64,000 nucleotides of DNA from Lytechinus pictus (GCF_037042905.1 NC_087245.1:16246001-16310000), one strand, 5' to 3'. Positions 1,825-64,000 are shown, counted from the first letter of the stretch. Notes: generated by a model from the sequence alone, not told the origin. Translations and numbers: made by a program.

Positions 1825-2109
1825 GTAACCAGCCGCTCTTTGTGAAGACCACAGAGGAAGTATTTGCTGTGAAGGATGGCAAAGCCACCCTCTCCTGCAC
1901 CCTCTCCGGCGAGCCCAAACCCAAGGTAGTCTGGATGAGGGAAGAGGAGATTCTCAAGAACTCGGACAACCTCAAGGTCACGTCCCAACCCAATGGTGTG
2001 TGCTCTCTAGAGATCTCAAAGGTCAGCAGTAATGAGATAGGGGAGTACAGGTGTATAGCTACCAACGAGCATGGAGAGTCAAGCTGTAGGCTCTACTTGG
2101 ATGTGGCAG
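1825..2109 (+). CDS. Exon: I-set Ig domain
   Basis: tttgcag|GT...GCAG|gtgaga; QPLFVKT...ATLSC...GEPKPKVVW...GEYRCIATNEHG; phase 1-1. Confidence 0.93.
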
Positions 2110-5100
2110 GTGAGATTTCTTGTGTGTTCCATGGTGTATCAAGGAAATTCACAGGGCAATAGTTGAAATCATTCCCTCATTCAGCAATCAACCTGGATGC
2201 CAGTATTCTCTGATAGTTCATGAGATCAAACCTCCAATCGAATATTTTTTTCTTTCTTTTTGAATTGTGCACCACTCTGAGTATCGTTTCCTTGAAAGAT
2301 CAAACTGTACTTGTCATTAATGTTGGCTGAATATGATGTCTTGCCTGACATATCTCTTCTCAAGATAAGTACGCAACCATGTAGGTCCAATATGAAAATA
2401 TCAGCTATAATATCTTGATTGAACCGTCGGTTTCTTAATTCATAGGACAAAATTTGATGTTTTCACACCTGCCTGATGAGAAATAAAATTCCTGTTTATG
2501 GTGTGAAAGCCGAGTACTGCTAATGTCATGGGTAGTAAATAAACAACAGACTAGTAGGTTCTGTACAAAAAAAATGTGAGAAATTTCACAGTTATTGTTC
2601 TAAGCTTTTTGAAGTATTTGAAAATCAACTATGAGAATTATTGATGTGAGGCAAGAAGAATGTGCGTCCATTGTAACTGGATGGAGGAGACTTGTATCAG
2701 GCTGATAATCATGAGGACTTTATGTTGATCTACTTGTACTGTACCATGTGAATATATTAAATGATTAAAAAGTAGGGGTATCATGAGGCCTGAGCAAGAT
2801 AATGCAATTCATGGGCATTTTTTCATTTCAGGCAAATTTGAATATGCGTTAAAACTGTAATCCAGTTCACGTACAATATTATTGAATGTTTTTATCTTCA
2901 TGTTTCATCTCATAGAGGCCCCTCATTTTGTGGAGACCTACAAAGATACGGAAGCCACCATTGGTCAGTCGATTCGATTGGAATGCAGTATAGACGGTAT
3001 CCCAGAGCCAGAAGTCATATGGTCTAAAGACGGCAAGGTTATAGAAGATTTTGAGAGATACCAGTTCTACTATGAAGGAGAAGAAGGATTTGCTTTGGAG
3101 ATCAACAACTTTGACAAGGATGATTGTGGGGAGTACACCCTAGAAGCTTCTAATATAGCCGGCAGTGTCTCTCATTCAGCAGAAATCTATGTGACAAGTA
3201 AGTCACTTATTATTTCTGTCTTCATTTTTCTGTTCAATATACTTATGAATTAACCAGTTGCACATCTGGTCTAAACTTAGTAAACCAGTATTAATGTACA
3301 TGTAAGTGCCTAGTGATTGTCTGCTCTCCCTGATCATTCTGGGTTAGATCCCCGAAACGTTCAATTAGCCGAGGCTGCAGTACCTCCCTTAAATGTGCCA
3401 AAACTTCTGGTAGAAACCCGACCTATCTTACCATACATCTTCAAAGAGTTGTAAGCTAGAGTAATATTGTACATTTGTAGGATCAAGGCCACCACTTTGA
3501 ACACGGTTTAAGGGCAAACTGCCCTGGAAATAATTGTCATTAGGATAAGGTGTCCTTTGGGGAAACTTACCCATCTGTGAACTATCCTGAGAAAGAGGTT
3601 TACCCATTGGATTTTTTTTTTCATGTAGGTATATTGTGTTTGGGGGTTGTTAAGTTCTGCCTGAAACATGTATTCACTCTCAAGTCTCATCCCTGTTTTA
3701 CCTTTCTTCTATTCCTTGGTGATTATTAGGTGGACCAGATGGATACAGGAGAGTCTTTATCAAGAAAGATATCATTGTTGAAGATGAATATGAACTCCTA
3801 GCTGAACTGGGAAGGTAAGGCCACCCCCTCAAAAATAATCTTTAAAAACAGACAAAAGTAAACAAACTATAGCTTTTCTATGTGATCTCATTTGATCAAA
3901 TTCTCTTGATAGAGATCACTATAATTGGCCCTATATGAAATGACTTATATTCTACTGTCTTTGAAATCATGAATTATTTAATGTTGGTTATAACACAAGG
4001 ATGGTATGCTCTTTGCTGTTTAATATTGGGCAGGCATGTACAATTTTGCAAACTTATGTAAAGGAACCTTATTTTCACCCCCCCAAATTCACAAATTATT
4101 GTTTATGAAATTTTCCCCCTTTTTCAGAGGAGCTTACGGTGTGGTCCATAAAGGTATCTCCAAGGCTGATGGCAGCGAGTGTGCCATCAAGACAATCCGT
4201 GTCAAGGCTGGTATGTGGGAGGAAGTACGGAATGAGATAGCTGTCATGGGTATCTTGGATCATAAGAGACTCATCAAACTCTTTGATGCCTATGAGACTA
4301 AGAGAGAGGTTGTCATGGCGATGGAAATGTATCCTTTATTAATTTATATGTTTTTAACTTTCAAAGCTTATATTTTTAGAGCATGGTATTAGAGTCGACA
4401 TTATTTTGGAGGTCTGTTGCAGTTATCTCAAGTTCTAAATGAATGCATATGGAGGTATCATCAAAAGAGATATTGGGCGGTATCAGTTTTTGCCTCCCCA
4501 GCAGATCATAATTGGTCAATTAATGATCATGCAATTGTGTTCCATTTTGCCAAATTTTGGCCTATTCCAAGGTTGTAATCGATAACTGCACATCTTTTCT
4601 GTCCGTTCATTTTGATGTCACAAACGAAACAACATTTGACATCACATGCACCACCTACACAAACCAGGCTAGGAAGGATCTTATATAATAAGACTTTGAT
4701 CCAGATGTTCCTAAGATAATCAGTAAGTCACAATTTATTGTGCGATATCTAATTGAGTGAAACATCTTACTATTACAGTGGAAGGAAATTTTTAAAGGCC
4801 AGACTAGTGCAATAGCTTTGTTTTGTAAGCTTGCTCATTAGTCTGTATCTCTTTCTAGGCCATCCAATATTATCTAATTAAGGACGTTCCACAGTTATGT
4901 TTGTGCGCATCATGATCTGCGCATATTTTACACTCTGCGTGCTGACGTCACAATGATGAACTGGTGATTAATCAGCTGTAGGTATTGTGAGCTGATTTTT
5001 CTCCTTACTGTACTAACTGCAGATCCGGTGTGTTATTTTATGAAGCTAATAAACTGGAATTATTCCATAGACCATTTTTGTTTTATTCCTCTTCAATTTC

Positions 5101-8100
5101 AAAATACTTTTCTCTGTAGTGCTGCAAAGTATGATGAATATGACCCCAAGTTTGAATAAATGATAGAGTGGTTCGGAGTTTTTCCTCACAGAGATATAAA
5201 GCTTTTGGCACGTTTTGAGGTGTTTAAAGAAGAACATTTGCTCTAATATGAGTGCTGATAGTTTGAAAACAAGCACATGAACCCATATTTTTTTAATGTT
5301 TGCACCTCTTAGGTATACCTTCCTCTACAACTATGAAAATGACATGGATTTTGAATAAAGTGCAGCAGTTCTTTTTCTTCTTAAGTTTGCTATTGAAATT
5401 TGAAATTTATGAGGTTGAGTATTTGTTATCTTTCCCGCAATTTTTAAGAACTGAGAGTGCTGTTAAACTTAAATGAGCAAACGATTGAAAGCACTATATA
5501 TAGATTATCCATCTTACGGATACAATAATCATATTGCAAAATTTGATGAAATTTTCAAGGGTTTTGACTGAGTAACAGAGCTTTAAACTCATTGTTGTGA
5601 TCTCGTGAGGTCTAAAAATGCTAAATTCTTTTGAATGCGCAATTCTCAAGAACATCCATTTGGGTTAACTTTGAAGCTCTATATAAAAAAATCAAGCACA
5701 TAGACCCATATCATTTTTTGCATATTTAGAATATTCAGGTGCTAAAGTATCTATGTGCAGAGAATGATGAAAATGACATGGATTTTCAATGTTTGGGAGC
5801 AAGACTACGGAACCATTCGCATGTTAGACGGTATTAACAGACTTTTGCTTGTTTTCGGCGTATTTTGGGCTGTTTCAAGCCAACTCAAAATATTTTGGAC
5901 ACTGATAATTTGAAAACGAGCACATGGACCCCATAGTTTAAATGTCTTAACTTCTTCAGAATATATTCCTCTACAGATCTAGAGAGTATGATGAAAATGA
6001 CAAGGAATTTGAATGTTTGGGAGCAGGACTAAGGAACCATTCGTATTTTAGACATTTTAGACGGAACTATTATAGACTTTTGCATGTTTTCGGCGCATTT
6101 AGGCGATTTTCAAGCCAACTCGCAACACTTTGGACACTGATAACTAAAAAACGAGCACATGGACCCCATATTTTTAATATTTAAACGGCTTCAGAATATA
6201 TTCCTCTACAAATTTAGAGATTATGATGAAAATGACATGGATTTTGAATGCTTGGGAGCAAAATTTCGGAACCATTCGCATTATAGATGGTATTATTAGA
6301 CTTTTGCACGTTTTCGGCGCACTTTAGGAGGATTTCAATATTTTCAAGCCAACTTGCAACACTTTGGACACTGATAACTATAATACGAGCACATGGACCC
6401 CATATTTTTAATATTCTAACGCCTTCAGAATATATTCCTCTACAAATCTAGAGAGTATGATGAAAATGACATGGATTTTGAATGTTTGGGAGCAAAACTT
6501 CGGAACCGTTCGCATTTTAGACGGTATTATTAGACTTTTGCACGTTTTCGGCGCATTTTAGGAGGATTTCAATATTTTCAAGCCAACTCGCAACATTTTG
6601 GACACTGATAACTAAAAAACGAGCACATTGACCCCATGTTTCAAATATTTCAACGAATTTAGAATATATTCCTCTACAAATCTAGAGAGAATGATGACAA
6701 TGACATGGATTTTGAATGTTTGGGAGCGAAATATGGGAACCATTCACAATTTAGACGGTATTATTAGACTTTTGCATGATTTTGGCGCATTTATGCGATT
6801 TTCAAGCCAACTCGCAACACTTTGGACACCGATAACTAAAAAAACAAGCACATGGACCCTATATTTTTAATATTTTAATGGCTTTAAAATATATTCCTCT
6901 ACAAATTTAGAGAGTATGAAGAAAATGACATGGATTTTGAATGTTTGGGAGCAAAAGTACGGAACCATTCGCATTTTAGACGGTATTATTAGACTTTGGC
7001 ACGTTTTCGGCGCATTTAGGTGATTTTCAAGCCATTCGCAACAATTTAGACACTGATAACTAAAAAACAAGCACATGGACCCTATATTTTTAATATTTTA
7101 ACGGCTTTAAAATATATTCCTCTACAAATCTAGAGAGTATGATGAAAATAAAATGGATTTTGAATGTTTGGGAGCAAAAGTACGGAACCATTCGCATTTT
7201 AGACGATGTTATTAGACATCTGTACGTTTTCGGCGCATTTTAGGCGATTTTCAAGCCAACTCGCAACACTTTGGACACTGATAACTAAAAAATGAGCACA
7301 TGGACCCTATATTTTTAACTTCCCTACATCTTTCATATACATTCCTCTACAGTTTAGCCGAATTTGATGAAAATGACATGGATTTTGAATAAAGTGCAGC
7401 TTAAACTATACTTTTTTAATTATTGAGTAGATTCACTTCTTTGAAGATTTGTTTTTTTCTTCAAGTTTTTGCACCATTCTTGCCAAATGAGGGCGCTGCT
7501 GACTCCAATTAGATATAGTTTTACCAATTAAAAGACTTTCTCCTACTTTGGTATCTACTAAGTTACACATTCTGAAAGTTTGATGAAGTTTGATGGGATA
7601 TCGAGAGAGTAAAGATGATTTAAACTCATTTGGTGAATTCGTGAGGTCTAAGAGAGGCATAATTCTCATGATTGCGCAGCATTTCATATCATTCAAATAC
7701 GGCAATTTTGAAGTCCCATAGAAAAAAAATAAGCACATGAACCTATATTATTTTTTGCATTTTCATAATGCATAGATACCAAAGTAACTCTCTGCAAAAT
7801 TTGGTGAAAATGACATGGACTTCATTTTAACTGTGGAATGTCCTTAATCTTTTAAAGACTCCTACATTCAATTCACAGGGAACTTGTAATGAATTTTAAT
7901 TCTAGTATTTCTCATTTAATCTCATCTCACTTAATCATTCCTGAATTTCATGAAGTCTAAGTTTATGATCAAATATCAAGGGAAAAAAATGGCTTTGTAT
8001 TTAAGAGTTGAAACTGATCGATAAGTACCACTTATCATTGTCATTGACAGATTTACATGTATACTATTGAATGAGTTAAATAGGAAGAAAGAATAAAATG

Positions 8101-11100
8101 TCACATCTAGGTGTTTGTCAACACAGGAAGGAGGTGCATGTAAGTGGGAAACATTTTTGGACATATATGTGGAGAGAGAGGGGAATAGAGAGAGAAAGAG
8201 ACCGGAGAGAAATTAAGAGAGAGATATCGGAATGATTTTTCCTGGTATCGCATCACAATTTAAAAAAAAATAAAAACTGCTTCACAAATATTATTTTTTG
8301 TAGCAGATTATTTTCATAGAACGGTACAGAACTTTTATTATTGAGAGTTTTTTCTTGTAAATGATGAAAGGAAGTATTAGGCAAAAAAAAAGAAGATCGG
8401 ATTAAATATTTGCACTCTGTAAAGTTATATTGTGTGTCACACAACAATTACCAGTTAAGACTGACAGACTAATTGATAGATAGATGGACAGAGAGAGAGA
8501 GATAGAAAGGTAGGTAGACCGATAGATAGACATACTTATATACTTATAGAAAGACATACAGAAATACTTGTAGACAGATTAGCATATACCGTGTGAGTAA
8601 AAAAAAAAAACCTGACACCTCACAAATCCTCAACTTAAGAAAAAATATGTCATGAACGCATAATCACTATGGCTGGAAAGAGCATCTTTTCCCAAATAAT
8701 TTGATACCATATTTATATTGTATGTCTTCACGTTTGTTTGGATAATCAATAGGTATTCTTTGCAGTGATGTAAATTTTGATTTGCGCCAAGGTAAGGCAT
8801 GACTGCAATGAATGAACCCCAGATGCAAATTATGTCATAATCCTACATGTGTTAGTAAACATATTTGCAAATCCCTTTTCAATGAAATTAAATTAAGAAC
8901 TAATACTGAAAAGTGATCTGGATTCATTAATTGCAGCCATGCCTTACTTTGGCGCAAATCAAAATTTACATCACTGCAAAGAATACCACATACCACATTA
9001 ATCTGGTATCAAATTATTTGGAAGAACATACTCTTTCAGGTCATATACAATAGTTCTGTGTTCATGACATATTTTATCCTTAAATTGGGGATTTGTGAGG
9101 TGTCAATTTTTTTTTTAGTCACACAGTAGTAAGACAGATCAACAGATAAAAAAAACCCTGACAGCCATATCGATAGATGCATGGACAGACAAACAGACAT
9201 ACAAATGAATGAAGAGTAGAGTACAAAGGAACAGGCAAACAGAGAAAAAAAGCGGTAGGCAGAGATGGAAAAGTAGATCACAAAAGTGGAAGACCCAACA
9301 AAAAGGGGGAAGGATTATTCGTCTGTGATTATACTACTTAGCATGCATGAAAAGATATCACTGGATTTTAAGTAGCTTTGTGCAAAGTTTGTGATACCAC
9401 ATTACTCTCTTTGCTCTTGTGAGAGTGTTTGCTACTTAACAATTAGAACATTTGAGTGTGATACGCAATAGAAGCGAAACCTGAATAGGTAAATTTGCTA
9501 CTGATGACATGAGTGTGTGTTTTGTATTGGATCGGGTAGAAGATGAGTCTGTGCTTGATTCTCATTGCTGTTGGAATTACAACTATGTCAGGTTAGTTAC
9601 TAATATATGATATACATTTATCTTTTAATTAACAGATAAAATATTTTTTTTTTCATTGGGTATTATACATGTAACAATAATTACATTATTTGTTTTATAT
9701 ACAGATTCACTTACCCATGTCCCCACCCCATGTGGAGTATTCCAATGTTACTTATTTACTTTGGATTGCCACATAGTTTCAAAATTATATATTTCAATAC
9801 TAATATCACTATTGATATTTTCATTCACCCTTTTGAGATTTTGAGGGGGGGGGGGATGGGCAACATCATGAATTTGTGACAAATTTATAACAGTGTTGTA
9901 CTCTTTATGCTATTTGAAAACCTAGTGATATTTTGTGTGTTCACCTGACTGAATGGAGACATAAATCACTCATTTTAATTATTTTGTTAACTGAACACTG
10001 CAAAGTAAATTGAATATCTCAAACCTCGCTTAACAAAAGAGGAAATATTTCATTCTAATCAGAGTAAATACACATACTGACCTTCCGTTCACAACTTGTT
10101 TATATTTCTATTGTCTATTATCTCTTTAAAGCTAACCTTCCCTTGTGTTCCTGTATGTACCAACTTCTGTTTGGTAGTTACAATCTTAATCTGTTTTTAT
10201 ATGGTGATAATTATGGTATTATCTAAAAGCATTCAGTCCCATGTAACCTTATTTTTCAGTTTTGTATTTTTTGGTCGGTGCAAAATATAATTTGATAAAG
10301 CTTTTGACATATGAACGAATCAACCAACATTTTGATGAATGACTGACCACCTGACTGAATGCACTATGGATGCATAGATAAATGCTTAGGTGAATGACAG
10401 AATGAACCAATGAGCAAACAAATGAATGAATGAATGAATGGATGAATGGATGGATGGATGAATGAATGAATGAATGAATGAATGAATGAATGAATGAGTG
10501 AGTGAGTGAGTGAGTGAGTGAGTGAGTGAGTGAGTGAGTGAGTGAGTGAGTGAGTGAGTGAGTGAGTGAGTGAGTGAGTGAGTGAGTGAGTGAGTGAGTG
10601 AGTGAGTGAGTGAGTGAGTGAGTGAGTGAATGAATGAATGAATGAATGAATGAATGAATGAATGAATGAATGAATGAATGAATGAATGAATGAATGAATG
10701 AATGAATGAATGAATGAATGAATGAATGGATGGATGGATAGATGGATGGATGGATAAGTGAATGATTGAATGAAAGTATGATAAATAAGATAATTGATTG
10801 ATTGATTAATTGATTATCAAATAAGCCAGCAACATTAAATGAATATCTGAGTGAATGATAAATGATAATTCCCTATGCTATGTATAAAGTAAGCAAATGA
10901 ACGAATATACAAACCTAATTGCTATGAATATGCTTAAATAAAAAGCCAACCAGTAGCTGGAAAGATTGTACTAATCACTGGTGAATACCTCAATCTTCAT
11001 GAAATTTGTAGACTGAACTGAAAACCAATGTTTGATCTCAAAGTGAGTGATATGCCTATCAAATGGCCTTGTTAAACAAATGTTATCTGCTGTAGGTCAC

Positions 11101-14100
11101 AGCAACCAGGCTGTAATTGAGCAACCTAGATTATTTAAACTAAGTCAATCATTAATACAACCATTACTGGCTCCATTTCAGGAGGAAGTATAGGAACGTG
11201 GCATTCATGGTAAGTGGAGGAAATAATATGATTTTGATTCTATTTTATTTATTGATAAATTGTGAAATAATGTGTACAGCTATTTGTATTCTTTATCTGT
11301 AGGCCATATCTCTGCTGTTAAGTGTTTGCTTGGATTATGATTTTATTTACTGATGTATGTATGATCAAATATTGTGTATATTCTAGATGAGTGGATTTGA
11401 TGTTTAGAGGTGCATTGAACTGTTTTATGCAGGATATATATGTGAATATCAGTCAAGTGGATTATTGTTATGCTGTTTGGTAGTATACCCACTTACTACT
11501 TCCTCACTTTTATTCTGACAATCATTATTAGTGTCTCCTCCCAAAGTTCCTTGCACTCATGCTATGTTTCTTATTATATTAAAAAATACATGTACATTTA
11601 CTCCCATTCTCTTCTCTTTCTCTCTCCCTGTCCCTACATCTAGTTCTACCCCCCCCCCTCGTGCACTTATAATGTATCTGTTTGTGTTTTACTCTTTCCC
11701 TTTGTAAGTTGCTTTTTTGTAATCTCCCTCTCTTTCTCTCTTGCTTGCTGGCTTGTTGCTCTCTCCTCTCTCTCTCTCTCTCGCTTATTTCATCCCAGTC
11801 TTCTTTTTCTGCCTCCCCCTTTTTTATTCTCTCTGTCTGTCTCCCCCTCTTTCATTTGTTCACCTTCTACATAATTGTAATATATGTTTATGAATTTGTA
11901 TCAGTTTCTCTTTCTACCCATGTTTACACAGCTATTTTCACAGTGTACTATTTCCAAGGTAAATTTTCCTTGACCAAATCAGTTGATAAATCTATAGTCT
12001 GGTACTTCTGGGGCTGTTTATATCAAAACCAAAATTATTTTGTTTTTGCATACACACATCTCCTGTATTACTTTCCAAGCCGAATCCAATCAGTATATCA
12101 TTCAATATATCAACCACGGCACATTACATGTCAGATGTTTGTGCCATCAATTAAATCTTTCTTTGTTTTAGTACTCCAGCCGGTTTTCCTGTTGTTGTTT
12201 TAACACTCCACTTCTCGCATGACACCAACCTTTGGTTTTATGACAAATGATGCATAGGTAATGAGATACCTATTCATGAGTGGATGTACTGTAAGTGCAA
12301 TTCATTTACAGTAGGTGTGGACCTTTGCATTGGTTTACATGGTACTGAGGCTAACATTTCTATCACATCAATTGTAGGAGGTTTTGTCAAAGGAGTTTTA
12401 CAGTCATTGGATATATCTCTATAAGGTTTGTCCATGATTCCATTTTATCATTAATGCTAATTTATCATGGGCATTTCAAAAACAAATACTGGGTATACAT
12501 TGAATAATCATTCGTTTTTGTTTTGAAAGCAGATCGCTTATGCAATGTGTAGTACCAAACTGGCATTGGAATTGGCAAATCAAGATCCTGCTTTGAGTTA
12601 TTATTAACAGATAAAAATTCAACCATCCATGTTGTTAACACTTGAGCAAAGGTCATCCACATGTATGGTAATAATAAGTTCATAGATCAATACATAAAGA
12701 TATATGCTTTTCCAGATTCATAGTTCCTACAGTTTTAAAAGCTGACTGTTTTCTCACTTGGATTAATATTGACCATATTTCTTAACAGCCTGTGTGCTGA
12801 ATCAGTATTGTTGCTGCTTGTTCTTTTCATAGTTTCTGGACTCCTACTTTTTCTTACCGCACCAATAATTATCAATTATAATTGTTCATCTTAGCAAAGA
12901 ACTACAGCTAATTATTAATATCTCTGGTTTAGGATTGAATGAGGAATATATTCATTGCAATTGTTGATTTTAATCATGCAAACATGCATTTTTTATAGTC
13001 TTTGTTTATGCTTTATTTTTTCTAAATGTCAATATAACCTGATATGGGAGTAAAGTACATGTATTGAAAAAAAACTTATCATGGTTAAATTTTGTAACTA
13101 TAAGTTGCATTGTATAAAACTACGTTATTACAATGTTCTCATATCCTAGGAATTAAACTTTTATGCCTTTTCATGTAAAGACATTGCTATGGCACTTTCA
13201 TCCCTCCATAAATTGAAACAGGCATAGTGCAAATGATGCACAGGACAAAAAAAAATTATATACTGTAGAACTATTATTTTAGGAATGTTGATATGCAAAA
13301 ATACTTCCCCCCCGTCATGTTTGCTTACTCACCTTTAATGAATATTTGAAAGTTTGGATGCAGAAAGGCAGTATAACTTCCAAGTCTTAAAATAACTTCC
13401 TCGTTCTACTAACAGTTAAGGGGAACAGGAAACCTGTAGGTAGGAAGTTATTTGGTCTATGTGAGGAAACTCATTTTTAGTTCTGTTTCTGTTTGTTTCT
13501 GTTTGTGGTAACTCCCGTAGGAACTCGGCAGGACAGCATTTTTTGCTGGTGAACGCCAAGCTGGTATATAACCAATTACTTTGGAAACATTTTACGTCTA
13601 GGTTAATCAGTCATAGTGGCTGACGTAATAGACGACAGATATCACTCTTGGGCCTTTTTATCAAAGTGGAGACAATGGCAGAGTTGGGATTCGAACTCAC
13701 AACCTTGCGATTATGAGTCCAATGCTCTAACCACTGGACCACACGACCCGTATCAGTTCCTGATAACTATTCTAGAAAATCATCCCAGGGAGAGCTTTCT
13801 AATTCTACAAGACAAAAGTTCTGTCATGCCCTTTACTACAATTATTTTAACCCATTAAAAAAATTTTTTTTTGATCTCTAATATCTTCTTTATGTTTTGT
13901 AAACACTTTGAGAGCAGAATGATTTTTTCTATATTGTAAAGCACTTAGGGCATGTTCGTATGGAAAAGTGCTGTATGAATGCTAAAATGTATATATGTAA
14001 TGTAAGTAGCAAATTGATATGTTCAATCTCTTTGATCGAATTTCCTGCAGGTATCACACAATAGTCTGTAACTGTTGGATTGTAATCAACAATTATACAC

Positions 14101-17100
14101 CTTATATATTTTCAGTATTATTTTCTTTCCTTTCCATAGTGTGGTCAATAGTACCAGTTTTTTAATCCATTGTTTGTGTAATGGTAAAAGCTCTTTCTAA
14201 TCACAATTTATAATCTTTTGTGAAAGTTTTTTTGTTCATACAAAATCTATTTCTTTGAATCATTTGAATGTCCATGTTACTTAAATTTGGAATGTTAGAT
14301 ACACCTGTCTTTAATTAATGCAAGTGTGTTCTTTCCAGCAATAAAGTAAGGATTATAAAAATCATCTCTTGGATTTCATATTCCTTGACGTTTTACTAAC
14401 GTTTAGAGTAACAGGAGGAGAGTTGTTTGAACGTATCGTCCAGAGGGATTCCTTTTCGGAGAGTGAAGCTGTAGGTTTCCTGAAGCAGCTTATAGATGGC
14501 CTCATCTACATGCACGATAGGAATATCGTCCATTTAGATCTTAAAGTAAGTCAGAATTTCAAATTTTACATGGGGGGGGGGTGTTTTGTCACGTTTTTTG
14601 GTCTCAATTGGTTCTGCTTGGGCAATTCCATAAAATTTGTACGTCCGACCCCCTATATGAGGGACCTTCATGATTTTTTTTCTCTGATTTCTTGTTCGTT
14701 TGACCGTCTGTAATGTTCTCTAATTGACCATGACTTGGTCAGTTTACAAAGTGAAGTATGGCTTGAAAAAAATGGGGGTCAGATGTACAAAAAGGTTGAT
14801 CATTTTATGGTATTGCCCGTTTATAATCATAAAAATTTGACTTTTTTGGTACAAAAGGGGAATGATGTTTTTTATATATATATACATAACTCTTAAAAGC
14901 TGGTATGGGAATAAACATAAAGCCTCTATTAAGCACATCTATGTATTAGGAGCTCTTGTAGCACAGTAGTTTTAATGGTATGGGTTAATATATCCCACTT
15001 CTGCCACATGTACATGTAATATGCAGTAGGTTGTTTCACTTATCAACATAATGATGGAGTGGACACATGACTTTGTAAAGTGGTGATGTATTTCAGAGTT
15101 CATTTTGGAACATTAGACAAACCATTGTGGCATGCGCACAAGCATGTGTTAATTTTAATACGATGACCAGTGGAATGTACTTATTGGAGAGTTTCTGGAT
15201 TTTATGTAATATTTTTATGGCTTGTATGTTCTTTTTTCAATGTGGAATAGGGTTAGCTTTAATCAAATCTATTCAAATACCACCCAATGCCTTTATATTT
15301 TGTTTCCCCTCTCACCAGCCCGAGAACATTCTCCTAGTGGCACCAGACTCTGATGACATCAAACTAATTGATTTTGGTTTAGCAGCTGTGTTGAAGGAAG
15401 GGGAAGAGGTTAGATGCAAGTTCGGTACCCCAGAGTTTGTGGCTCCAGAAGTTGTCAATAAGAATCCGGTATCCACAGCAGCAGATGTTTGGGGTGTAGG
15501 TGTCATTGCATATATTCTGTAAGTATTCAAGCGAAGTTTGATTAGTGTTAATGCATTTGCTCTTTGTTTCTTGTATTTAACTGTTCTTGTAATTTCTCTT
15601 GCTTTTCCATTTTCCCTATCTTTAGAAAAACACATATATCCTTGTCTTACCTCTTCCTTTAAATCAGCTGTATGCTGTTTGCTCCTCAAGCTCTTTTTTT
15701 TAATTACCACTCTATAGTGACCCCCCCCCCCCCATGACACACATAGCCTAACTTACTTTTCTCTACACTTTTGTGTTCATGAATCTTTATCATCAGGCTA
15801 TTTTTTGTTTAACCACACTCATGCAAATGGGATAAACTAGCCTTTTTTTTTCATTAATATTGGCCCTGACTCTCTTTCTTTTAAACATTTGCATCAATAA
15901 AATCAATGTCGAGTAAAACATACACAATGGCTACAAATTGTGACCAATCTCAATTAAGTTGAGATGGATCTGAATTTTTAATCAATTGCAACATTTCATT
16001 GGTTATGACCCAGGTAGAAACCCAGAAAAATTCAAGTTCAGTATCACAAAGATTGAACAATTTAATGTCTATTTTCTATTCCAAATACAATCAAGGAATT
16101 GCAAAACAAAATCAGATTTTTCTTCCTATACTTTCTGAGTCATGGGAGCTGTTTCATAAATTGAGAACATCTTTAAAAACAACTGAAATCTGAAAAAACA
16201 TGATAATTTTTGGCACATTAGCTAATGTTGCATTGTGCAAATGCTGATTAAAGTACATTGTATAAACTCTAAACAGACTTTTTATTGCAAACCCCTAGAG
16301 ATATTTAAGCTTGCTGCATGCTATTTACTACATGTAGCTAGCGACTAGTGGGTCGATCGCGTAATAAGCAATTGCAAGCTAGTGAACAGTACGTGCTTGC
16401 TAAAAGATAGCTTAATTGTTTCTCGGCATGCCTATTACAATCTTACTAAAGCTATTCGCTTGCTAGTCACTAGCTAGCTGCTAGCTAGTTGTAGCTTGAC
16501 ATTTTGTGAGGTAAGTAATTAATGATCCATATTTTAGATAAAATAACTTGAAATAATACTTCAGTTAACATTTGGATACCTCATAGTTTAATCATTTGTA
16601 AGTTGTTAGTATCTCAGGCAAAGAGAGGGTTGGATGCAGTTGCGAAAATAGAATTAATTGTTCCAAGTATATTTGATTTCCCAGGCTCAAACTGATTTAT
16701 TGTTGTTCAAGTTGTTGTAAATGTCATTGTTTTCACCCATTTTCTCCCAGATGTTTTTGACGCCCCCATATAAATCCATATTTATGTACAAATTTGTTAT
16801 TCATTGATGAAAAAATATTACTTTTTTTCTATTTTTTTTAAAGTTCTACCAGTATATATTGTGAGTACTCCTAAACATAGAAATACTTGTCATATATTTT
16901 TGTATAGTGTTGCTCTTGAAATCTGAAGTACGAGATGACTCAATTCAAGGCGATCAAAAATAATTTCTACTGATACACATGAACTCTGCATATTTTTATA
17001 TATATTCTTTGAAAAGATTAAACTAGGCAAATTCAATTAATCACAATGAGCAGTGATGCCCATGGAAGGTCCGGTAAAATCTAGGTGAATTATTATCTTA

Positions 17101-20100
17101 ATAAATTGTGACAAAGTATTAAACCAGCTATAAAGGGTCACTAAGCAATAATTATGAACTAAAAATAAAATCACAATGATAAATTGGCAGAAATGGCTGT
17201 ATTATAGCTGAAAAACTACATTTCTACCACAGGGACTTGACAGTAAATGTAAGTATCTTCATGTATTTATAAAAAATACTTTGTTATATTTTGTTTACAA
17301 GTGATAACTACCACAACTGGGTTTTACATGTATGTTTAATTGATTGCAGATTGGGTAAACATTTTTCTTTACATTTATTTATTTCAGTCTGAGTGGTATA
17401 TCTCCGTTTGCTGGTGAAGATGATCGTCAGACCCTTCTGAATGTCCGAGGTGGTCAGTGGGACTTTGATGATGAGGTCTGGGATGACATCTCAGATGAAG
17501 CTCAGGATTTCATATGGCTCTTGTTTGAAATGAATGCAGAGTGAGTACAGTGTGTTTTCATTTAAACGACTATTGTATATCATGGAACAAAATCCTGCTC
17601 ATGTCGCTTCTCCCATTTTCTTGATTGTTTCAAATTTTCCCAGAAGTTTTCCTCTTGTTTTAAAACATGCAGTCCATGTTATTTTGTTCCTCCATTGTTT
17701 TATTTTTGTAGTTACACCAGATAGATGGTGAAATATAAATGTATTATATTTTTGCTGTTACTATCATCATGATTTTTGTACCAGTTGGGGTTTGCAAAAA
17801 AAATATATATCTTAAAATGTCTTTGATACTGTATATACAGTAATGAACTGTATGATAGAAATGCTATTAAAGTATGATTATGATACCAAAAGAAAGATTA
17901 TTTGATATCATTTGACTTATAATGAAGTGTATTTCTTTTGAAGGGGGGCCAAGATTTCAAGTGAAAAGATGTAAATGATGGAAGATTGATAGGTAACTAA
18001 CTGGCTGACCAGTTGAGAATAAAAGACTTTACTCAATTTATTGTTTTTCATCATAACTCTTGTAACTTTTTGATTAATACATTATTTTGTTCTTTAATTT
18101 TATCTATTCAAGAAGTCAAACACTCTTTCTTCTCAGTTTGTTTTCAGTGTGAATAGGTATTGGGGAAATCAACTTTGCATGTGTATTAAGGTTGAGGCAT
18201 ATGGAAATAAGTTTGTTGCTTGTACATATCCACTTCATTTGAATTCAAATTTTGCAATACATAAAATCATGTCATCACTCTGCTTTTGGATGTTGAAAAT
18301 TTATTATAAATACTAAGAATTTGCCTTGCATTCTGGAACATGATTTGATGAAGGTTAATTTGACAACAGCCATTATTTGTTTTTATAATTATAATTTTTC
18401 TAGGAAGAGGCCTGGACTAAAAGAAGTATCAGAGCATCCATGGTTGAAGGTATGAAAATGAAAAAATAAAAGGAATTACAAATTATATTTTATATCATGG
18501 GAAAGTGAAATGGGATCATAACTTTCAAATTATGCATATATATCAACCAAATTATAAATGTTTGTTTTGCTGATTAGTATTGTTGTATTATTATTATGCT
18601 TGTTTGATTTGATTATGAGATCATCTTAGACACCTAAATAGGAGTCTCTGCTGTGTTTAGTAGGTATTCCACTATAAAGATGCTAGGCATCTTCACGTCA
18701 TCTTTTCTATCCCCACTGTTTTGTCTATGCTGAAACATGAAGATAAGAGATGAAAACATGCTTGCAGGACTCCTGCAAGAATTGAAGATGCTGCTTTTAC
18801 CAGTGGCAAGGTGCTTAACCTAATTCCCCTACTACATTTGCAGTGACTGTTTGATAAAGGAAATTGATTATTAAGTAACATCTAGTGAAGCACTTCTGTT
18901 GGTGTAGTGCAGGGGATGGGGGTATAATATGATAGCTCAAGTGTTCTTAGAGTGAAAATCTATCAGTATATTACATATTATGAATCATAGAATTTATTTT
19001 TTTTGGTCAACTTTGATAAAATTTCAGATCTTGTAAATGGTCCCATGTGATTTTTTTTCTAGTGTCCACTTGATAATAATGTTCCATGTAAAACATTCCT
19101 TATTTATGAGGACATCATATCTTGAATCGGAAATTATGTATGTGTATATACCTGTACTCTTAGACAATTCAAGTTAAAAAGATTTGCTGGTACCACTAAA
19201 TTATTGTCAACATGCATTATATAATATCTACAAGACTCTCATGAAAAAACATTGTTATTTTTAACCTTACTATTTTGGCTACAATAGGAGGCTACAGAAA
19301 TTTGTTTAAAGCTGTGTCTACAGGTTTTCATAAAAAAGAGGCTCATAAAACAAAAAAAGTACAGAATTTTGTGATAAGAAAAGGGGGTGGAGTTATCACA
19401 TAAAAAGGGGCAGGCACAAGATCAAGTTTGGACGGGGAAGCTTGTGCATCCTGTACGTGCTCTCTCCTGCTTCTATCTGCCAAAGTAAGGGTTAAAAAAA
19501 AGTATAGCATTACCGTTTAGTAGAAATTTTCTGTGAATTGCGCAGACTATGAGTGAACCTACAAAATCTTCAAATCTAACTTTCTGCCTGTTTGTCTAGC
19601 TATGTATCTAGTCCAGTTGATGAATTATACATTATCTTTCCATCTCTCCGTCTTTTTGTCTCTTGATCTAATTGATCATTTGCATCTATTCATTTACTGA
19701 TCTATCAGACATTTCTTTGTGAATGTCTGTATTTCTGTATATTTCTACTCTACTTCTTTAAAAGATAACCTATGAACACTGTTCATTGATATTGCTTTGT
19801 TTTATTTTATTTGTTTCATTGTCGCTATTGTAGTTTGATGAGCGTCAGGACCTAGGTGCTAAGATTAGCTTGGACAGATTGAGGACTTTCAATTCCAGGA
19901 GGAAGTGGAGGGTGAGATATTGTTAATAATATTGTTAGATATATACTTTGTTGCCCCCCCCCCCCAACAATAAATTCTTTTTGGGGGGTAAGCTTTGAGA
20001 TGCAATTCTTGACTTCCTCAGACCTACATGTACATGTATTACACAGCTCCAAATTGTTTAATTAGAAGAATCACAAGAGGAACAATAACATTAAATTTCA

Positions 20101-23100
20101 AAATGCTGAACATTCATTTTAGCAGCCACTGAGCAGCACCAGATCGACGTTGCTCTGTCTCTAAAATCATTGAATGCCAAACAGGGTAGCAGCAACTCCC
20201 ATCTTTCAACATCTTTTGGTCTGATGTGGCAAGGGCTTGACGCTCTACCAATTGAGCCAACACACCAGTATATATGTAAAACATATTTAAAACAAAGTAA
20301 ATGTTGCAATGTCATCACTTAGTACATTTATGTGAAATATTAAATGTGTGACATATGAACATCTTTTAATGTTATTAGTTATAAAAAATTTTGCTAAATA
20401 AAAGGATTACTTTTAGTTATCCTCCCATTTTTGTAGGTGAGTACATGCATGATCATTTGTCTTTTTTTTTTCATCACAGAAAGCCTTGACAGCAGTGAAA
20501 TCAGCAATGAGATTGCGTCGCCTTTCAAGTCTCGGTAGTAACCTGAAGAAAGCAGCCATAGAACACACTTCTGGCCAGCAATCATCGACGTCCTCTTCAC
20601 CCGCCACCCCGGATTCCGCATCATCCGCTGGCAGCGACGTCTTCAGTGAGGACAACACTACCAAATACGGCAACCTGTTATCCCCAACGAGCTGCGAGAC
20701 CATCGTGGAGAGCATAAACGAGGAAGGAGCCGTCGGCGGGGAAGGGAGCGAGACAGGTAGACGGCGTGGTGCATGGAACACATACCGACATTAAAAATCA
20801 GAATCGTTTTCATCTGCCATATTTAGCATGACGTACGGAATGTTGCACACACACAGTGACATTATATCTATATCTACCTGTCTATTGTGCCTATAACTTT
20901 TGTGTTTGACTGTTTTCAAAGCTAACACTGCTCAGCGAGAAGAAAAGCATAACAAATGTGTGCATTTAAAGTGTCTTCTGTCAAAGTACATGAAATATTT
21001 CATTATATTTGTCATGTATTTTGATGAATTGTAAACCAACGAAAGCATGAGACTCTAAAGAGAGAGAGAGAGACAACCAAATCACTGCATGTTCTCTGGC
21101 TTCAATACTGTATCAAATTCTTGTGAACAAGAATTTGATATTTCTGTGCATACTAACTTTCAACTGTTGAATTATATTACATTCTCATTCATTGCTGTAA
21201 CGGATTCACATTTTAGTGACATCTTCACAGTCAAATAATCCAAATAATATTGTGCTTTCAAACAATCAGTTTGAGATATCGTTAGAATCTTTGGGAAAAG
21301 TATAGCTTCCGCACCCATTTGAATAATATTTAAAATATTCCAGGTGTATGATTATACTTCTTTTCAGACTTGAATGCCATTCATTTTCTCCATTGTGAAA
21401 TGAGTTTCTTTTCATTCAATTACCAAAGCTAAGTGCCTGAAACTAAATCTGTTTGATCTGCAATAAAAACAGCCTGTGTTTAAGTTCAGGTTCTTGGTGT
21501 ATTTGGGTTTGTTCCCATGAGTGTGCTTGGACCAGCTGTTTGGAGAATTATTATTGCCAGGTCTGCCAGGAGGTTAGCAGAAGGGGAAAGTAGCTCAAAT
21601 TTGTCCACAATTTGATCCCAGGTAGAACTGCCTGGAGATGTATTTCCGATGATTGATGAGTACACAATCCAGAAAAGACATTCTTGGGGAAGTTTTGGGT
21701 ATCAGGTTATCCATTTGTTCACCGTGTGAGCCATTGTGAAGAATATATTTTGTGACTTTGAGAGTGTGTAGTGTTCATATGAAGGATCTTTCATCTTCGC
21801 TGCATTGGTGAAAGTGCCGTTCAAGGAGTGTAATAATTGAAGCAATATTGAAGACACCAATAAGCAGACATCTCTTGGATGCACCAGTGCCTTAATTTTG
21901 TGGAAGTAATGGAATTATGTGGATTTATCCATGATCACGTTTTTTTTTTGTAGATGAGCATATGCACCAACATCATATAAAAAATTGTTCTATGACTCTT
22001 TCTGTGTGCAACCTGCAGAAATGTCATTGATATTGCCTTAAGCAGAGGACTTTGTAAGTGAATTTTGGCAATTTCTATTTGCTGGCCAGGAGGAAATTTA
22101 GAAGTATAATGCCAAAGTGGTAATACATGATTGGTGTCACAATGGAAAGGAAGAAATCAAACAGTGGTGAAAACATGGCAGATTGTTACAAATCATTGCC
22201 TAATAGAGATTTTGAGAATAATAATGGAGGCACATCAGGTCGTCCCTACCCGCTCCTGTCTCGACCATCAAAGCTGAGCTTCGCCACAAATTTGCACAGT
22301 ATTACTGAGTCAGAAGGAAGCAGAAGTGCCGAGCAAGTTAATGATGACTGGGAAATTGAGAAAGATCTGACAGAAGAGGTATTTTCACGATCAGGTAGTG
22401 ATACATCGTCACTTGTATCGACTCCACGTTCACCGTATGGTTTGAGGAACTTCTCTCAGCTCTCCTCTGAGTCAATGGAGGATATGGACATGGGTAGATC
22501 AGAGCCGATGCAACCAATGTCACAGGATCCTGACATCATGGCCGCTAGACGAAGCTCAGTGCGGAACAGACGCTCTGGATTTGCATTCCACTTCGGAGAT
22601 AAAGCGGTTCCTGCAAATGCCTTTGTCAACACTGAAGAAAATTGCCAGGCACCCAAGATGCTTTCTGTCAATGAAATGATGATGAAGATTGGTTCAGGCA
22701 AAAGTCCGAATGAGTCGAGTGCTAGTATGCCGGCAAAAGAGTCTCCACCTGTCAGCTGTGTATCCCCCACTCTAGATCCACAACGAAAGGAGAGCCTTCG
22801 TAAAGCTGGAGCAGGTCCTCAGCGTTTCAGCCTAGTAGGTCTTCGAAAAGTCTCAAGCAGCGAGATAGAAGAAGATTTAAACTTTTTGCACTGCTTAGGA
22901 GATAGTAGACTCCATCTAACTTTGTATGAGCGGATAGCTTTGCTTTGGTTTGATTCTAGAGGGCGTTTTATTGTAGGCCTCCTTGTAGGCATAGCGATTG
23001 CTGTGTTTATAAGGATTTTGCTGGCTATTACAGACTATATCTGTAGTAGATGACAGGCATAGATGAGGCCCAAATACTTGTTTTTGAATGTGTAAGGTGT

Positions 23101-26100
23101 CTGAACTCTTTATAAAGTGCTTGCCAAAGTAGTTGTAAAGCTGAAAAATACAAAATGTACTTCAAATATTTTAGTGTAACTTTCATGAAATTTCGTGAGC
23201 TATCTAATAATATTTCTGTATGCTTGATATTTTTTTAAAACATAAATTTGTTTTTTTCTTTTTATGCCTCCGCTCACTCTAGCTGGTTGCCAGGGTCATA
23301 ATGTTTTATCGGTCATCTGTCGATCTGTCCCGTTATTTTTCTGGTGAAAACTAAAGAACTGTTTGACAGATAAATTTCATTTCTTGGGCCAAGCAAGGAG
23401 GTTACTTTCAACCTGGTCCAATTATGCATGTACAGTGACAATGATATCGTTAACTTTGGGGATCTTGAGGTCAAAAAATAATTAAAGAATAGTTTAAGGG
23501 TTTAACTTCATATTTAGCTGAAGTATGCATATTGGAGGGACAATGATCTGCTTAGATTTAAGGTCACACGGTCAAAAGTCACAAAGGTAATTATTTCACG
23601 ATTATGAATTGTGAAATGTTTATCTGATAGATTTTGCATGTTTTCATGAAAATCTCAGTCTGTTGCCGATTGAAGTAAAAGTATCTGCATTCTTTGTTAT
23701 ATATTTGATATAAATGTAAACCTGAATATGTTGCATTATTTTTGGTAAGGGCAGTCATTCATCTACCAAACATATTTCCCCAAGTAAACCCAAAACAAAA
23801 ATAAACAGACACGTCACTTCTCAGGCATATATTCAGGTCAAAGGAAATGACAATATTGCTCATTCAGGATGATTTGGGGTGTTTTTTGTACGCCCGTCTC
23901 GACGTGACGTATTATGGTATCACGCTCGGTGTCCGTCCGTCTGTCTGTCCGTTAACTTTTCCTTATAAACGCGATAACTTCAGTTTACTTTAGTTTGACT
24001 TAACCTAGGCTCATATAATTTGGTGTGTATGATACTAGCATAGATCCCAGGAAGTCTTTTGATTTTGAGGTCCAAAGGTCAAGGTCACAGTGACATGTTT
24101 TCATCTTACCCTTCTGAAGTCCTTGTAAACGCGATAACTTCAGTTTAACTTAACCTAGGCTCATATAATTTGGTGTGTATGATACCGGCATAGATCCCAG
24201 CACTTGATTTTGAGGTCAGAAGAACAAAGGTGGAGTCGCCACCTTCCACTTTTCTTGCTTGACCAATAACTCCATTTTCCATGTTACAGGCGGGCGTATT
24301 ATGTGCTCACCTTAGCGACACTCTTGTTTACAATTTAAACTCCCTGGAATTACAAAGAAATTACGGAGAATTGCACTTCTGATTATGATCACTATCTATA
24401 AATCAGATGTCATGTAGGTGCTTTAGCAGTGATAAAAGTTGATTATACATGTATCATTATCTTTTTCATCTATGATATCGAGGGGTCATTTCACAAGCAT
24501 TGGCATATGACAAGCCTACTGGTTTTCTCAATCAGTTTTAAGCACATTAGCTCAATATGCTGATAAACACTTCAGATATCAATGTTTATTTTTAGTACGA
24601 AGTTTGTACCCACATTTCAAGAAATTATCAAGCAATATTTCATGGATTATTTGAAAGTGATGTCAGGCGAAATATTACAAAGCACAAACTTATGAATTAT
24701 TTGGGCTTTTTAATGCATGCTTGTTGCAAAAACCCAGAGCAAAAGACAATCTTTTCATCTGCTTGGGTATCCACACATCAGAATTCTGACCTGTTATTTC
24801 ATAATAGACAATTCAGATTACATTAATAGGTTATTATATTTATGTTGAAACAATTCAAAATGTAGTCTCACTTGTTTATTCTTCATAATTTAGTTGTCAA
24901 AGTCATATATCATGTGTATAACTTATAGTTGGGTATATACCCCATACTGTTTAAAAAAAACTATTCATTTTTTGTTTCTTAATGAAGAAATAACCATACT
25001 ATAATTAGCTTATATAACACCTGATATATGCTATCAGGTGCTTTCAAATGTCATACCTGATATTCTACATGGCATCATGATAGATAAGAGGAAATATTTC
25101 CTTTTTCTTGCTTTTAGTCAATTTGAGTAACTGGCAATGATGTTTTATCAACTTCTGTTATCATTGTCCGTGTCATTGTGTCATGGGTTTTTCTCCCTAT
25201 TAGTATTAGTTGAATTTTGTTCATACTCCTTCCTCAATGGAAGTCAAGACAAAAAAGTTTGGATGATATGTACTAATACTTGTAGATGCAACCAATCTTA
25301 TATTGAATATTTTGATATAGGATGCTTCTTACTGACTTTCAAGCTCACTTTTATCACTGTACAGTATAAAATCATTATGATTATTTATTGGAATTCAATA
25401 GAGTTATTATTGAAACAATGTGTCTGTTAAACAATCTGATCTTAACATACCAGATATTATGTTGGTACTCTTTTAAAAGAACATTAACTGTACTGTAGTT
25501 ATCTTTCATATTGTTAAAGCCTACTTATTTGAAATTTTCCTGCATTTATGGCTCTATTAAACATTTTGGTTATTTATAAGATGTGTTTCTATTTTCAGTG
25601 AAAGTGCAATTGGGTTCGTTTTTATGCAGAGTGGACTATCATAGGAAAATTTGGCATATTGTAAATGATATTTAGAAATATATTTATATCAGAAATGAAC
25701 AGTGAAGTGTGATTGACTTTTGAGCTTTAGTGAAAGGTAATAATATGTACAATGACAAGTTTATGATACAACGGTTTATGAGGTGTATCACCATTTTCAA
25801 AGCAAGTGAGAATAGATATTTTGCTATTTCTTGTCATTTTTTATGACACACTGAAATGTACCAGTGAGATATCGAGGACTGAACATGACAGAAAGCCATA
25901 CTTTATCACTCAAGCATGTTTCATTTGGTGTATTTATTTGTGTCAGGCATTGTGATTCCTCCCACACCCCTCTCCCATGTCCTTGGTCGGCACTGACCCA
26001 CTCTTGCCCGCACCCCCCCCCCCCAACCCAATGCCATAACCCCTCCCTGGAAGTCTACTTTCTCGCTGTAGTCATGTTAGTTGTTGTAGTCATTACACCC

Positions 26101-32100: not shown

Positions 32101-32387
32101 TCTGGCAGAGTATGAGCTTCTGAGGGAACTATCCCACCCCCACATCCTACAGCTCCGAGAAGCTTTCCTAACGAACAGGCACGTCATGTTGGTCACTGAG
32201 CGCTACTACGGAGGAACAGTGCTGAAGTATCTGACCAAGGAAGATACATACACCGAGTCTACAGTGGTCAGAATAGTTGCCCAGGTGAGCCCCCACCCCC
32301 CTCTTTGATTAAAAAAGGTATGGCGTATAAAATGCTAAGAACCAATCAAAACCCCCCAAACCAAAATGTGCAATATGCCCCCCCCCC

Positions 32388-32426
<39 letters not shown>

Positions 32427-46529: not shown

Positions 46530-46580
46530 TTAGATAATTCGCTTTACACGTATCATGGCTCTTACAGCATTGAAAGCTTT
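46530..46580 (-). CDS. MYLK: MLCK terminal exon: CaM-binding helix end
   Basis: ttgcag|KAFNAVRAMIRVKRII*. Confidence 0.87.
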   Translation of the reverse strand, partial: KAFNAVRAMIRVKRII

Positions 46581-60363: not shown

Positions 60364-60380
60364 CTTGACTTTATCTTATC
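60354..60380 (-). CDS. MYLK: 27-nt exon carrying a candidate start codon (MPA)
   Basis: ttctgcag|GATAAGATAAAGTCAAG ATG CCT GCT G|gtaagt; ATG at 60363-60361 is in frame with the Fn3 exon, and an in-frame TAA lies upstream in the same exon. Confidence 0.6.
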
Positions 60381-62688: not shown

Positions 62689-62696
62689 TGACGTCA
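62689..62696. promoter_or_regulatory. CRE palindrome TGACGTCA in the candidate MLCK promoter
   Basis: Perfect 8-mer, near a minus-strand CCAAT (about 62647-62651) and upstream of a minus-strand donor TTG|gtaaga at 62422/62421. Confidence 0.3.
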
Positions 62697-64000
62697 TTGC
62701 ATGGGAAGCATGATGGCATTTTCCGGATACTGTATACAAACATCTCAGTGGGATCTCATTAATGCATCAATAATATTTAAATCAACACATCGATATATTT
62801 CTAATACAAAAAGAATCATAATACCTTATAAATGCAATAAGCATGATTTAGCAAGGACATTAAGAAAGTTTTAGAAAAAATACGCATCTTCATTTTTTTT
62901 TTGCTTTATATTCATCTTTCAATTTGTACAATTGTATTGATCTGTTCATCAAAAATGTAATGCCACAATGAAAAAAAATTAGTTTTACAAAGTCAAAATA
63001 ATTTTTTGATATGAAAGTAAAATAGCGTCGTTAATCAACAGTGCAATAAATTCATGACTAAAATAAAGACTTTGAAAGCTCTTTTCTCATTTTTGTTTTA
63101 TTCATTTCTCTTTAGCTATAAAACTGCAGGTGAGTTCTACTTTGGTCCTTGGGATTCTATTCCTGACACATGACTTGGATTCCTGTGGTTTTTATTCTTC
63201 ACGATTTAGTACGAGTTATTTCGGATACCTAATCTGGTGTTTCCGAGTTTGGAAGATACTTGCTTACGTCACTGAAAATGGTATGAGCCCTCATAATAGA
63301 GCCTTGCACCACGCGTCAACAAGCTCCAAGGGACCAGTATCTTAAAACGAGTAGGGGCATAACAAGGCCTCTAATAGGTTCGTCTGGAAGGGGTGAGTTA
63401 TATATTCATTTTTATCTCTTAAATTTGATAATAATATGTGCACTCCAGGAGCGGATCTAGCTTTTTGCTAAAGGGGGGGGGGGGGTGGGGGCTGATTTCT
63501 CGGTTGTACTGTGTGTTGCCCAAGTTTATATCACCATTAGTGAAAATTAAGCCTACAATACGTTGCCAAGTGGTATTGTTTTATGATAATCTTCAATAGT
63601 TAGAAACTAAGAAACTGCTTGTTTTTTATTTCATTAATTTTTTTTTAACTTAAACACACATTCATCCGAATATTGATGTTTTAAGAATGATCTATACGTA
63701 TGTCAAAGTGACCATGGTGACAGCATTATATTCAGGAAACTAATTTGCTCGGGAACGATAAACTATGCTGATATTGTTTTAGTTTTGATTGTAGGCTAAA
63801 CGAATTATCTTGAAGAATACTAGTTCTAATTAAATACGAAAAGAAAATGTTTTCGATCGCAACATCATATATATATATGAAAAATACAGCAAGGTCAAAT
63901 GTACCAACATCGGATATAGATTTATAAGGAAAATGGCGATACTAAAAAGTTGTAATGAATAATTTGCTTTTAGCTAATTATGGAGATTGAGATGGGCATT

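What the first reader, a model, noticed from the sequence alone, without database searches (positions are those of the whole stretch)
4329..14406. 10-kb U12-type minor intron splitting kinase 1 at the hinge
Seen: donor GTATCCTTT, branch TTCCTTGAC at 14381-14389 close to the AG, and only a short T-rich stretch in place of a long polypyrimidine tract. Known: these are the U11 and U12 recognition consensuses, and minor introns are rare and can be rate-limiting. It is the longest intron in the window and has taken up several repeats. If retained, the frame runs on to a stop at 4390-4392, truncating the protein before any catalytic loop. Inference: a possible control point for kinase-containing isoforms.
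Basis: partly seen in the sequence, partly recalled or inferred. Interest (0 to 1): 0.72.

Follow-up and report, generated by a model that had tools for sequence, protein, structure and literature searches.

The report
Ancient minor intron in muscle kinase
A 10-kb intron with rare minor-spliceosome signals interrupts a sea-urchin muscle kinase gene at the same codon as a minor intron already catalogued in human SPEG, so it is likely an old, known intron grown long, and nothing here shows that it acts as a switch.

Summary
4329-14406 (10,078 nt) is a phase-2 GT-AG intron with a perfect U12 donor and branch site, splitting the hinge codon (AME[I]VTGGE) of kinase 1 in a sea-urchin SPEG/obscurin-like gene. 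My exon model equals a Lytechinus pictus protein at 1146 of 1146 residues. It is the only U12-like intron, and the longest, of 27 mapped. It is not new in kind. Human and mouse SPEG and OBSCN each have a catalogued minor intron; a published SPEG oligo plus my alignment put the human one at the same codon and phase, and a zebrafish spega minor intron responds to rnpc3 loss. The neighbouring MLCK gene has an ordinary U2 intron at this codon, and kinase 2 has none. The control-point idea is unproven: no retention data here, published retained minor introns are the short ones, and 10-kb minor introns are not rare. One lead remains: mouse Obscn's minor intron scores 0.995 mis-spliced in heart, and half-kinase obscurin isoforms are described. 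The RNA contigs' listed output did not show this junction.

The parts
1825..35655 (+). SPEG/obscurin-like gene, 19 exons in the window (Ig, Ig, kinase 1, interkinase region, Ig, Fn3, kinase 2); it begins upstream of the window
   Evidence: model equals P0006 at 1146 of 1146; Pfam on P0006: 2 Pkinase, 3 I-set, 1 fn3
4128..4328 (+). exon encoding the kinase 1 N-lobe, ending two bases into the hinge Ile codon
4329..14406 (+). GT-AG U12-type intron, phase 2, 10,078 nt
4329..4337 (+). U12 5' splice site GTATCCTTT, preceded by T rather than G
   Evidence: scores -0.9 as a U2 donor against 2.6-12.6 for the 26 others
4390..4392 (+). in-frame TAG met if the intron is retained
5759..7390 (.). tandem array of 7 copies of a 225-234-nt unit, with related sequence from about 5255 to 7822
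8587..9128 (.). element with long terminal inverted repeats (MITE-like; label from recall)
10421..10774 (.). (AATG/AGTG)n microsatellite, 88 units
13490..13760 (.). high-copy dispersed repeat; ends approximate; tRNA-derived SINE by eye and recall
   Evidence: contig depth 1,800-3,700 in bins 13096-14193 in 4 of 4 runs; no ARAGORN or Rfam hit here
14381..14389 (+). U12 branch site TTCCTTGAC, predicted branch A14388 at -19
14394..14400 (+). TACTAAC (U2-type branch consensus) between the U12 branch and the acceptor; role unknown
14407..14545 (+). exon from the hinge to the catalytic loop (VTGGELF...HLDLK)
32002..32284 (+). kinase 2 exon that runs through the homologous hinge codon without an intron
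51944..52454 (-). 511-nt U2-type intron (GTGAGT donor) at the homologous hinge codon, phase 2, in the neighbouring MLCK-like gene
   Evidence: model equals P0013 at 425 of 425; same alignment column

Best explanation
This is a GT-AG intron with U12 signals at the hinge codon of kinase 1 in a sea-urchin SPEG/obscurin-like gene, sitting at the same codon and phase as the human SPEG minor intron, so it is likely inherited from the last common ancestor of echinoderms and vertebrates and likely removed constitutively by the minor spliceosome. U11 is predicted to pair with the donor and U12 with the branch at 14381-14389; A14388 would attack the donor, and the first AG downstream (14406) would be used, the only nearby AG that keeps the frame. 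Its length likely reflects passive gain of repeats, which a minor intron can tolerate because only its ends are read. Any failure to splice would give a stop-bearing RNA that is likely degraded, so an effect would be on gene dose and not on isoform choice.
For: Shown: perfect donor and branch at the exon edges, unique among 27 introns; 10 of 10 urchin protein models carry the junction peptide. PMC6717393 supplements 1 and 8 list one minor intron each for human and mouse SPEG and OBSCN, 706-1,300 nt long, with donors GCT|GTATCCTG or ACT|GTATCCTG. The SPEG E1680K repair oligo printed in PMC7571691 contains the very branch 12-mer listed for human SPEG, then 10 nt ending in AG, one base, and codons for CTEELLERI. 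In my alignment mammalian SPEG kinase 1 reads VTE[L]CT-EELLER, with L in the column of the urchin's split Ile. A zebrafish spega intron is classed minor and responded in 1 of 2 rnpc3 mutants (PMC11347168 supplement). Kinase 2 of the urchin gene groups with SPEG and protostome obscurin kinase 2 (98/94). 17 of 189 human minor introns in the part of the list I read are 10 kb or longer (counted by eye, part 6 of 9).
Against: No RNA record of the 4328/14407 joint was listed (one search covered only 10900-27350 and its tables were cut). Kinase 1 sequences fall in an unresolved fork of the tree, and no vertebrate OBSCN protein was in it. The OBSCN and spega intron positions are inferred, not mapped. 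The branch A is farther from the AG (-19) than in human SPEG (-13, read). Recognised repeats explain only about a quarter of the length. 'Constitutive' is an assumption: the mouse Obscn ortholog is listed at 0.995 mis-splicing in heart.
Confidence: 0.82

Rival explanations
1. The hinge minor intron is a conserved switch point: in some tissues transcripts would start inside it, or U2 sites would bypass it, giving isoforms with half or a dead kinase 1 plus kinase 2.
For: Mouse Obscn minor intron has mis-splicing index 0.995 in heart only. Human OBSCN shows a CAT8 event, 0.376 in its third tissue column, likely heart by the tissue order of another file. A tandem-MLCK obscurin isoform with only part of the first kinase is described and its full transcript was unknown (PMC3916441). 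In the window, a U2 donor at 4211 (score 8.7, about the median of real donors), TACTAAC at 14394 and CAG at 14414 would give an in-frame loss of 42 codons. Strong U2 acceptors lie at 11182 and 14140.
Against: 0 of 252 fetched proteins have the bypass join. The 14414 acceptor scores 3.1, below all 26 real acceptors. The candidate exon 11182-11209 had no contig depth in 4 of 4 runs, and with 2 acceptors and 8 donors at or above the median score in 10 kb such a pair is expected by chance. Six ATGs precede the first in-frame Met in 14140-14512. No paper I read ties the tandem isoform's start to this intron; Speg is not among the hits in the retention tables.
Confidence: 0.1
2. Slow minor splicing is rate-limiting: regulated retention followed by decay sets how much kinase-bearing protein is made.
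For: The stop at 4390-4392 is real. Minor introns as switches under U6atac control is a published model (PMC3728624, seen as search listing and abstract start only).
Against: Retained minor introns are the shorter ones in mouse and human, and few are retained in muscle (PMC6717393). Any intron of this size holds an early stop. No retention data for this locus.
Confidence: 0.06
3. The intron is spliced by the major spliceosome and the U12 motifs are a relic or chance.
For: It has GT-AG ends and a TACTAAC near the acceptor.
Against: It scores -0.9 as a U2 donor and -5.0 as a U2 acceptor; joint chance about 2e-7; the TACTAAC A is only 8 nt from the end; the vertebrate counterpart is minor.
Confidence: 0.02

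Closest known systems
Human SPEG minor intron, chr2:219478106-219479143, 1,038 nt (PMC6717393 supplements 1 and 8)
   Same: GTATCCT donor, CCTTGA branch, GT-AG ends, phase 2, same hinge codon of kinase 1
   Different: about ten times shorter; branch A at -13 instead of -19; hinge residue Leu instead of Ile
Human and mouse OBSCN minor intron (710 and 706 nt; PMC6717393)
   Same: U12 signals; exon ends GCT and ACT fit a Glu-Leu split after two bases, as here Glu-Ile (position inferred, not mapped)
   Different: much shorter; reported mis-splicing of 0.995 in mouse heart; no such data for the urchin
Zebrafish spega minor intron (PMC11347168 Table S6)
   Same: minor intron in the orthologous gene; responds to rnpc3 mutation in 1 of 2 alleles
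   Different: 98 nt; its position in the protein was not shown in the row I saw
U12-to-U2 class conversion at orthologous positions (PMC7367187, passages)
   Same: the neighbouring MLCK gene has a U2 intron at the same codon and phase; kinase 1 and MLCK share 6 intron positions
   Different: here the contrast is between paralogous kinases; the direction of change is inferred from the published one-way model, not tested

Membership tests
U12-type (minor) intron | 5' splice site RTATCCTT at the exon edge | tested here: met
   0 mismatches; other 26 introns 3-6
U12-type (minor) intron | branch site TTCCTTRAY close to the 3' end | tested here: met
   exact match, A at -19
U12-type (minor) intron | no strong U2 polypyrimidine tract or U2 donor | tested here: met
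   matrix scores -5.0 and -0.9, below all 26 U2 sites; the raw pyrimidine count alone does not separate it
U12-type (minor) intron | junction used in mature RNA | tested here: inconclusive
   protein models of four urchin species agree; one search did not list the joint
U12-type (minor) intron | dependence on U11, U12, U4atac, U6atac | not testable with these tools
   indirect only: zebrafish spega responds to rnpc3 loss
U12-type (minor) intron | intronIC classification | not testable with these tools
   program not on hand; consensus mismatch counts and a local matrix were used instead
SPEG/OBSCN kinase-1 minor intron (orthologous position) | host gene of the obscurin/SPEG/UNC-89 tandem-kinase family | tested here: met
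   names; domain order; kinase 2 clade 98/94; kinase 1 unresolved
SPEG/OBSCN kinase-1 minor intron (orthologous position) | same codon and phase as human SPEG | tested here: met
SPEG/OBSCN kinase-1 minor intron (orthologous position) | same codon and phase as OBSCN | tested here: inconclusive
   only the three exon bases before the donor were seen
U2/U12 twintron | both sets of splice sites used in RNA | tested here: inconclusive
   in-frame U2 pair exists on paper, weak acceptor, 0 of 252 proteins show it; no RNA view of the site

The most novel reading that the evidence does not exclude
The minor intron at the kinase 1 hinge is a switch kept from sea urchins to mammals: where minor splicing is bypassed, or a transcript starts inside the intron, the obscurin/SPEG gene makes an isoform with a half or dead kinase 1 and an intact kinase 2. 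This would explain the unmapped tandem-MLCK obscurin isoform and the 0.995 heart signal in mouse.
Probability: 0.1. Interest if true: 0.6.

Novelty: new member of a known kind. Interest (0 to 1): 0.2.

Why it matters
As it stands it is a modest point: it extends the SPEG/OBSCN minor intron back to the echinoderm-chordate ancestor, and one window shows three states of one intron position (U12 in kinase 1, U2 in the neighbouring MLCK, absent in kinase 2). SPEG and OBSCN are heart and muscle disease genes, so a conserved dependence on the minor spliceosome is worth knowing, but both are already on published minor-intron lists. It would matter more only if the intron marks the start of half-kinase isoforms.

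Tried and rejected
No whole genome is held for this window, so no genome-wide intron background and no check for minor snRNA genes. One search listed 4 runs of 1 study, none on record as RNA. Laid on 10900-27350 they show the 15518/17388 joint spliced in 4 of 4 runs. Three records extend 187, 149 and 135 letters upstream of 15319, but the pieces at 14407 were not among the rows shown, so neither the U12 joint nor retention could be read. Other U12-like motifs (donors at 1645 and 46443, branches at 11967, 46446, 61001, 62285) lie at no exon edge of the two models: rejected as a second minor intron. No Rfam family or tRNA gene inside the intron (the single Rfam hit in the window is a weak tRNA match at 51513-51585). 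Candidate internal exon 11182-11209 rejected as chance-level. Literature: 'minor intron'+'U12'+'SPEG' gave 0 papers; 'obscurin'+'minor intron' gave 3 unrelated ones; 'sea urchin'+'U12-type'+'minor spliceosome'+'intron' gave 5, none on this gene by title and abstract start; one search gave nothing relevant. MYLK, DAPK and KALRN had 0 hits, and CAMK only CAMKMT, in the PMC6717393 supplements. PMC13242403 passages did not say where short UNC-89 isoforms start. The supplements and databases of PMC10639083 and PMC7367187 were not searched and may already list the urchin intron. No structure prediction was run, since it would not bear on the question.

Full report
Observation. The intron is 10,078 nt, phase 2, and splits the Ile codon in AME[I]VTGGELF. 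By the usual kinase layout (recalled) Met is the gatekeeper and Glu-Ile-Val the hinge; the closest solved relatives are twitchin, MLCK, titin and DAPK kinases. I built exon models for both genes in the window. The plus-strand gene has 19 exons and equals the L. pictus obscurin-like protein P0006 at 1146 of 1146 residues. The minus-strand gene has 10 mapped exons and equals the L. pictus MLCK-like protein P0013 at 425 of 425. These two proteins may derive from the same assembly as the window. Models from L. variegatus, S. purpuratus and Diadema give the same junction peptide (10 of 10 urchin proteins).

Is it more than chance? Among the 27 introns only this one matches the U12 donor (0 mismatches against 3-6) and branch (0 against 1 or more). 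On matrices built from the other 26 introns it scores -0.9 as a U2 donor and -5.0 as a U2 acceptor, below every one of them (their self-scores are somewhat inflated). The donor 8-mer alone occurs 3 times on the plus strand against 1.15 expected, but donor plus branch at a given intron has a chance of about 2e-7. It is the longest of the 27 (next 6,216, median 815). It holds a 234-nt tandem array, an inverted-repeat element, a tetranucleotide microsatellite and a high-copy repeat; the first three cover 25% of it.

What it is. The host is the urchin member of the obscurin/SPEG/UNC-89 family. The names, the domain order and the grouping of its kinase 2 with SPEG and protostome obscurin kinase 2 (98/94) agree. 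Kinase 1 is unresolved in that tree of 54 domains from 32 of the 252 fetched proteins, and no vertebrate OBSCN was included. PMC6717393 (seen: supplement rows, passages, section 8) lists one minor intron each in human and mouse SPEG and OBSCN. PMC7571691 (seen: passages; supplements searched) prints a repair oligo for SPEG E1680K. It contains the branch 12-mer that the first paper gives for the human SPEG minor intron, followed by 10 nt ending in AG, one base and the codons for CTEELLERI. With the listed exon end GCT this is a Leu codon split after two bases. Mammalian SPEG kinase 1 has that Leu in the same column as the urchin Ile. So the human SPEG minor intron and this one share codon and phase. 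For OBSCN only the exon ends GCT and ACT were seen, which fit but do not prove the same position. PMC11347168 (seen: one supplement row, passages) lists a 98-nt minor intron of zebrafish spega as responsive in 1 of 2 rnpc3 mutants.

Internal comparison. Kinase 1 and the neighbouring MLCK share six intron positions and phases. At the hinge the MLCK intron (52454-51944, 511 nt) has a GTGAGT donor, and kinase 2 has no intron there. Under the one-way conversion model (PMC7367187, passages) the hinge intron was U12 in the ancestor of these kinases, converted in MLCK and lost in kinase 2. That order is inferred, not tested. MYLK and DAPK are absent from the mammalian minor-intron tables, which fits.

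How it likely works. Shown: the signals and the frame. Inferred from established minor-spliceosome biology: U11 pairs with the donor, U12 with the branch, A14388 forms the lariat, and the first AG is used; the AGs at 14408 and 14414 would shift the frame with this donor. Length is not special. Minor intron length tracks major intron length across species, and minor introns can be far longer than major ones in the same genes (PMC10639083, passages). 17 of 189 human minor introns in the part of the list I read reach 10 kb (counted by eye).

The control-point idea. The stop is real, but any long intron has one. Retained minor introns in mouse and human are the shorter ones, and few are retained in muscle. 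The RNA contigs could not test it: the stretch laid was 10900-27350, the runs are only guessed to be RNA, and the rows for 14407 were not shown. Against a flat dismissal, mouse Obscn's minor intron has a mis-splicing index of 0.995 in heart only, and human OBSCN shows an alternative event there. Reviews describe a tandem-MLCK obscurin isoform with only part of the first kinase, whose full transcript was unknown (PMC3916441 and PMC12812942, passages). An internal start at this intron would join these facts, but no text I read says so. In the urchin sequence a U2 donor at 4211 with TACTAAC and CAG at 14414 would delete 42 codons in frame, but that acceptor is weak and 0 of 252 proteins show the join. 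I put this family of readings at about 10%.

Verdict. A real minor intron, the urchin counterpart of one already catalogued in SPEG and likely OBSCN. My searches found no paper on the urchin copy, but database supplements that I did not search may list it. The scan's index held no note on it by words. New member of a known kind; interest 0.2.

Noticed in passing
window 22124-23053 (+): 309-codon open frame nested in intron 10 with a C-terminal hydrophobic helix (19-residue hydropathy 2.85); no Pfam or Atlas hit and no match among the 252 fetched proteins. Already followed up elsewhere in the scan (e1-8075963).
   Followed up: partly
window 20687-25884 (+): Contigs of 4 runs cover most of this part of intron 10 at even depth, while 26272-27350 has almost none. 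This suggests a short transcript ending after kinase 1: exon 20480 reads on to a stop just after 20791, followed by a long tail that includes the nested frame. The runs are only guessed to be RNA.
   Followed up: partly
window 46530-59974 (-): A short Fn3-kinase MLCK-like gene lies tail to tail with the SPEG-like gene and shares six intron positions with kinase 1; its hinge intron is U2-type. Its first coding exon was not found in 60000-64000 by a motif search.
   Followed up: yes
window 4211 and 14394-14414 (+): Cryptic U2 donor plus TACTAAC and CAG that would bypass the U12 intron with an in-frame loss of 42 codons.
   Followed up: partly
window 11182-11215 and 14140 (+): The only two strong U2 acceptors in the minor intron; the first opens a 28-nt stretch ending ATG|GTAAGT. 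No RNA depth seen.
   Followed up: partly
window 32693 (+): Kinase 2 intron 16 has an unusual donor GTTCGT, and kinase 2 reads YLDLRHDN and PEFMAPE in place of the usual catalytic-loop and activation motifs.
   Followed up: no
window 27402-28004; 31688-31887 and 54056-54244: An 88-nt tandem array of 7 copies, and two copies of a short inverted-repeat element.
   Followed up: no
PMC6717393 supplement 4, mouse chr11:59006818-59007523: Obscn minor intron with mis-splicing index 0.995 in heart only; 'Obscn' does not occur in that paper's main text.
   Followed up: partly
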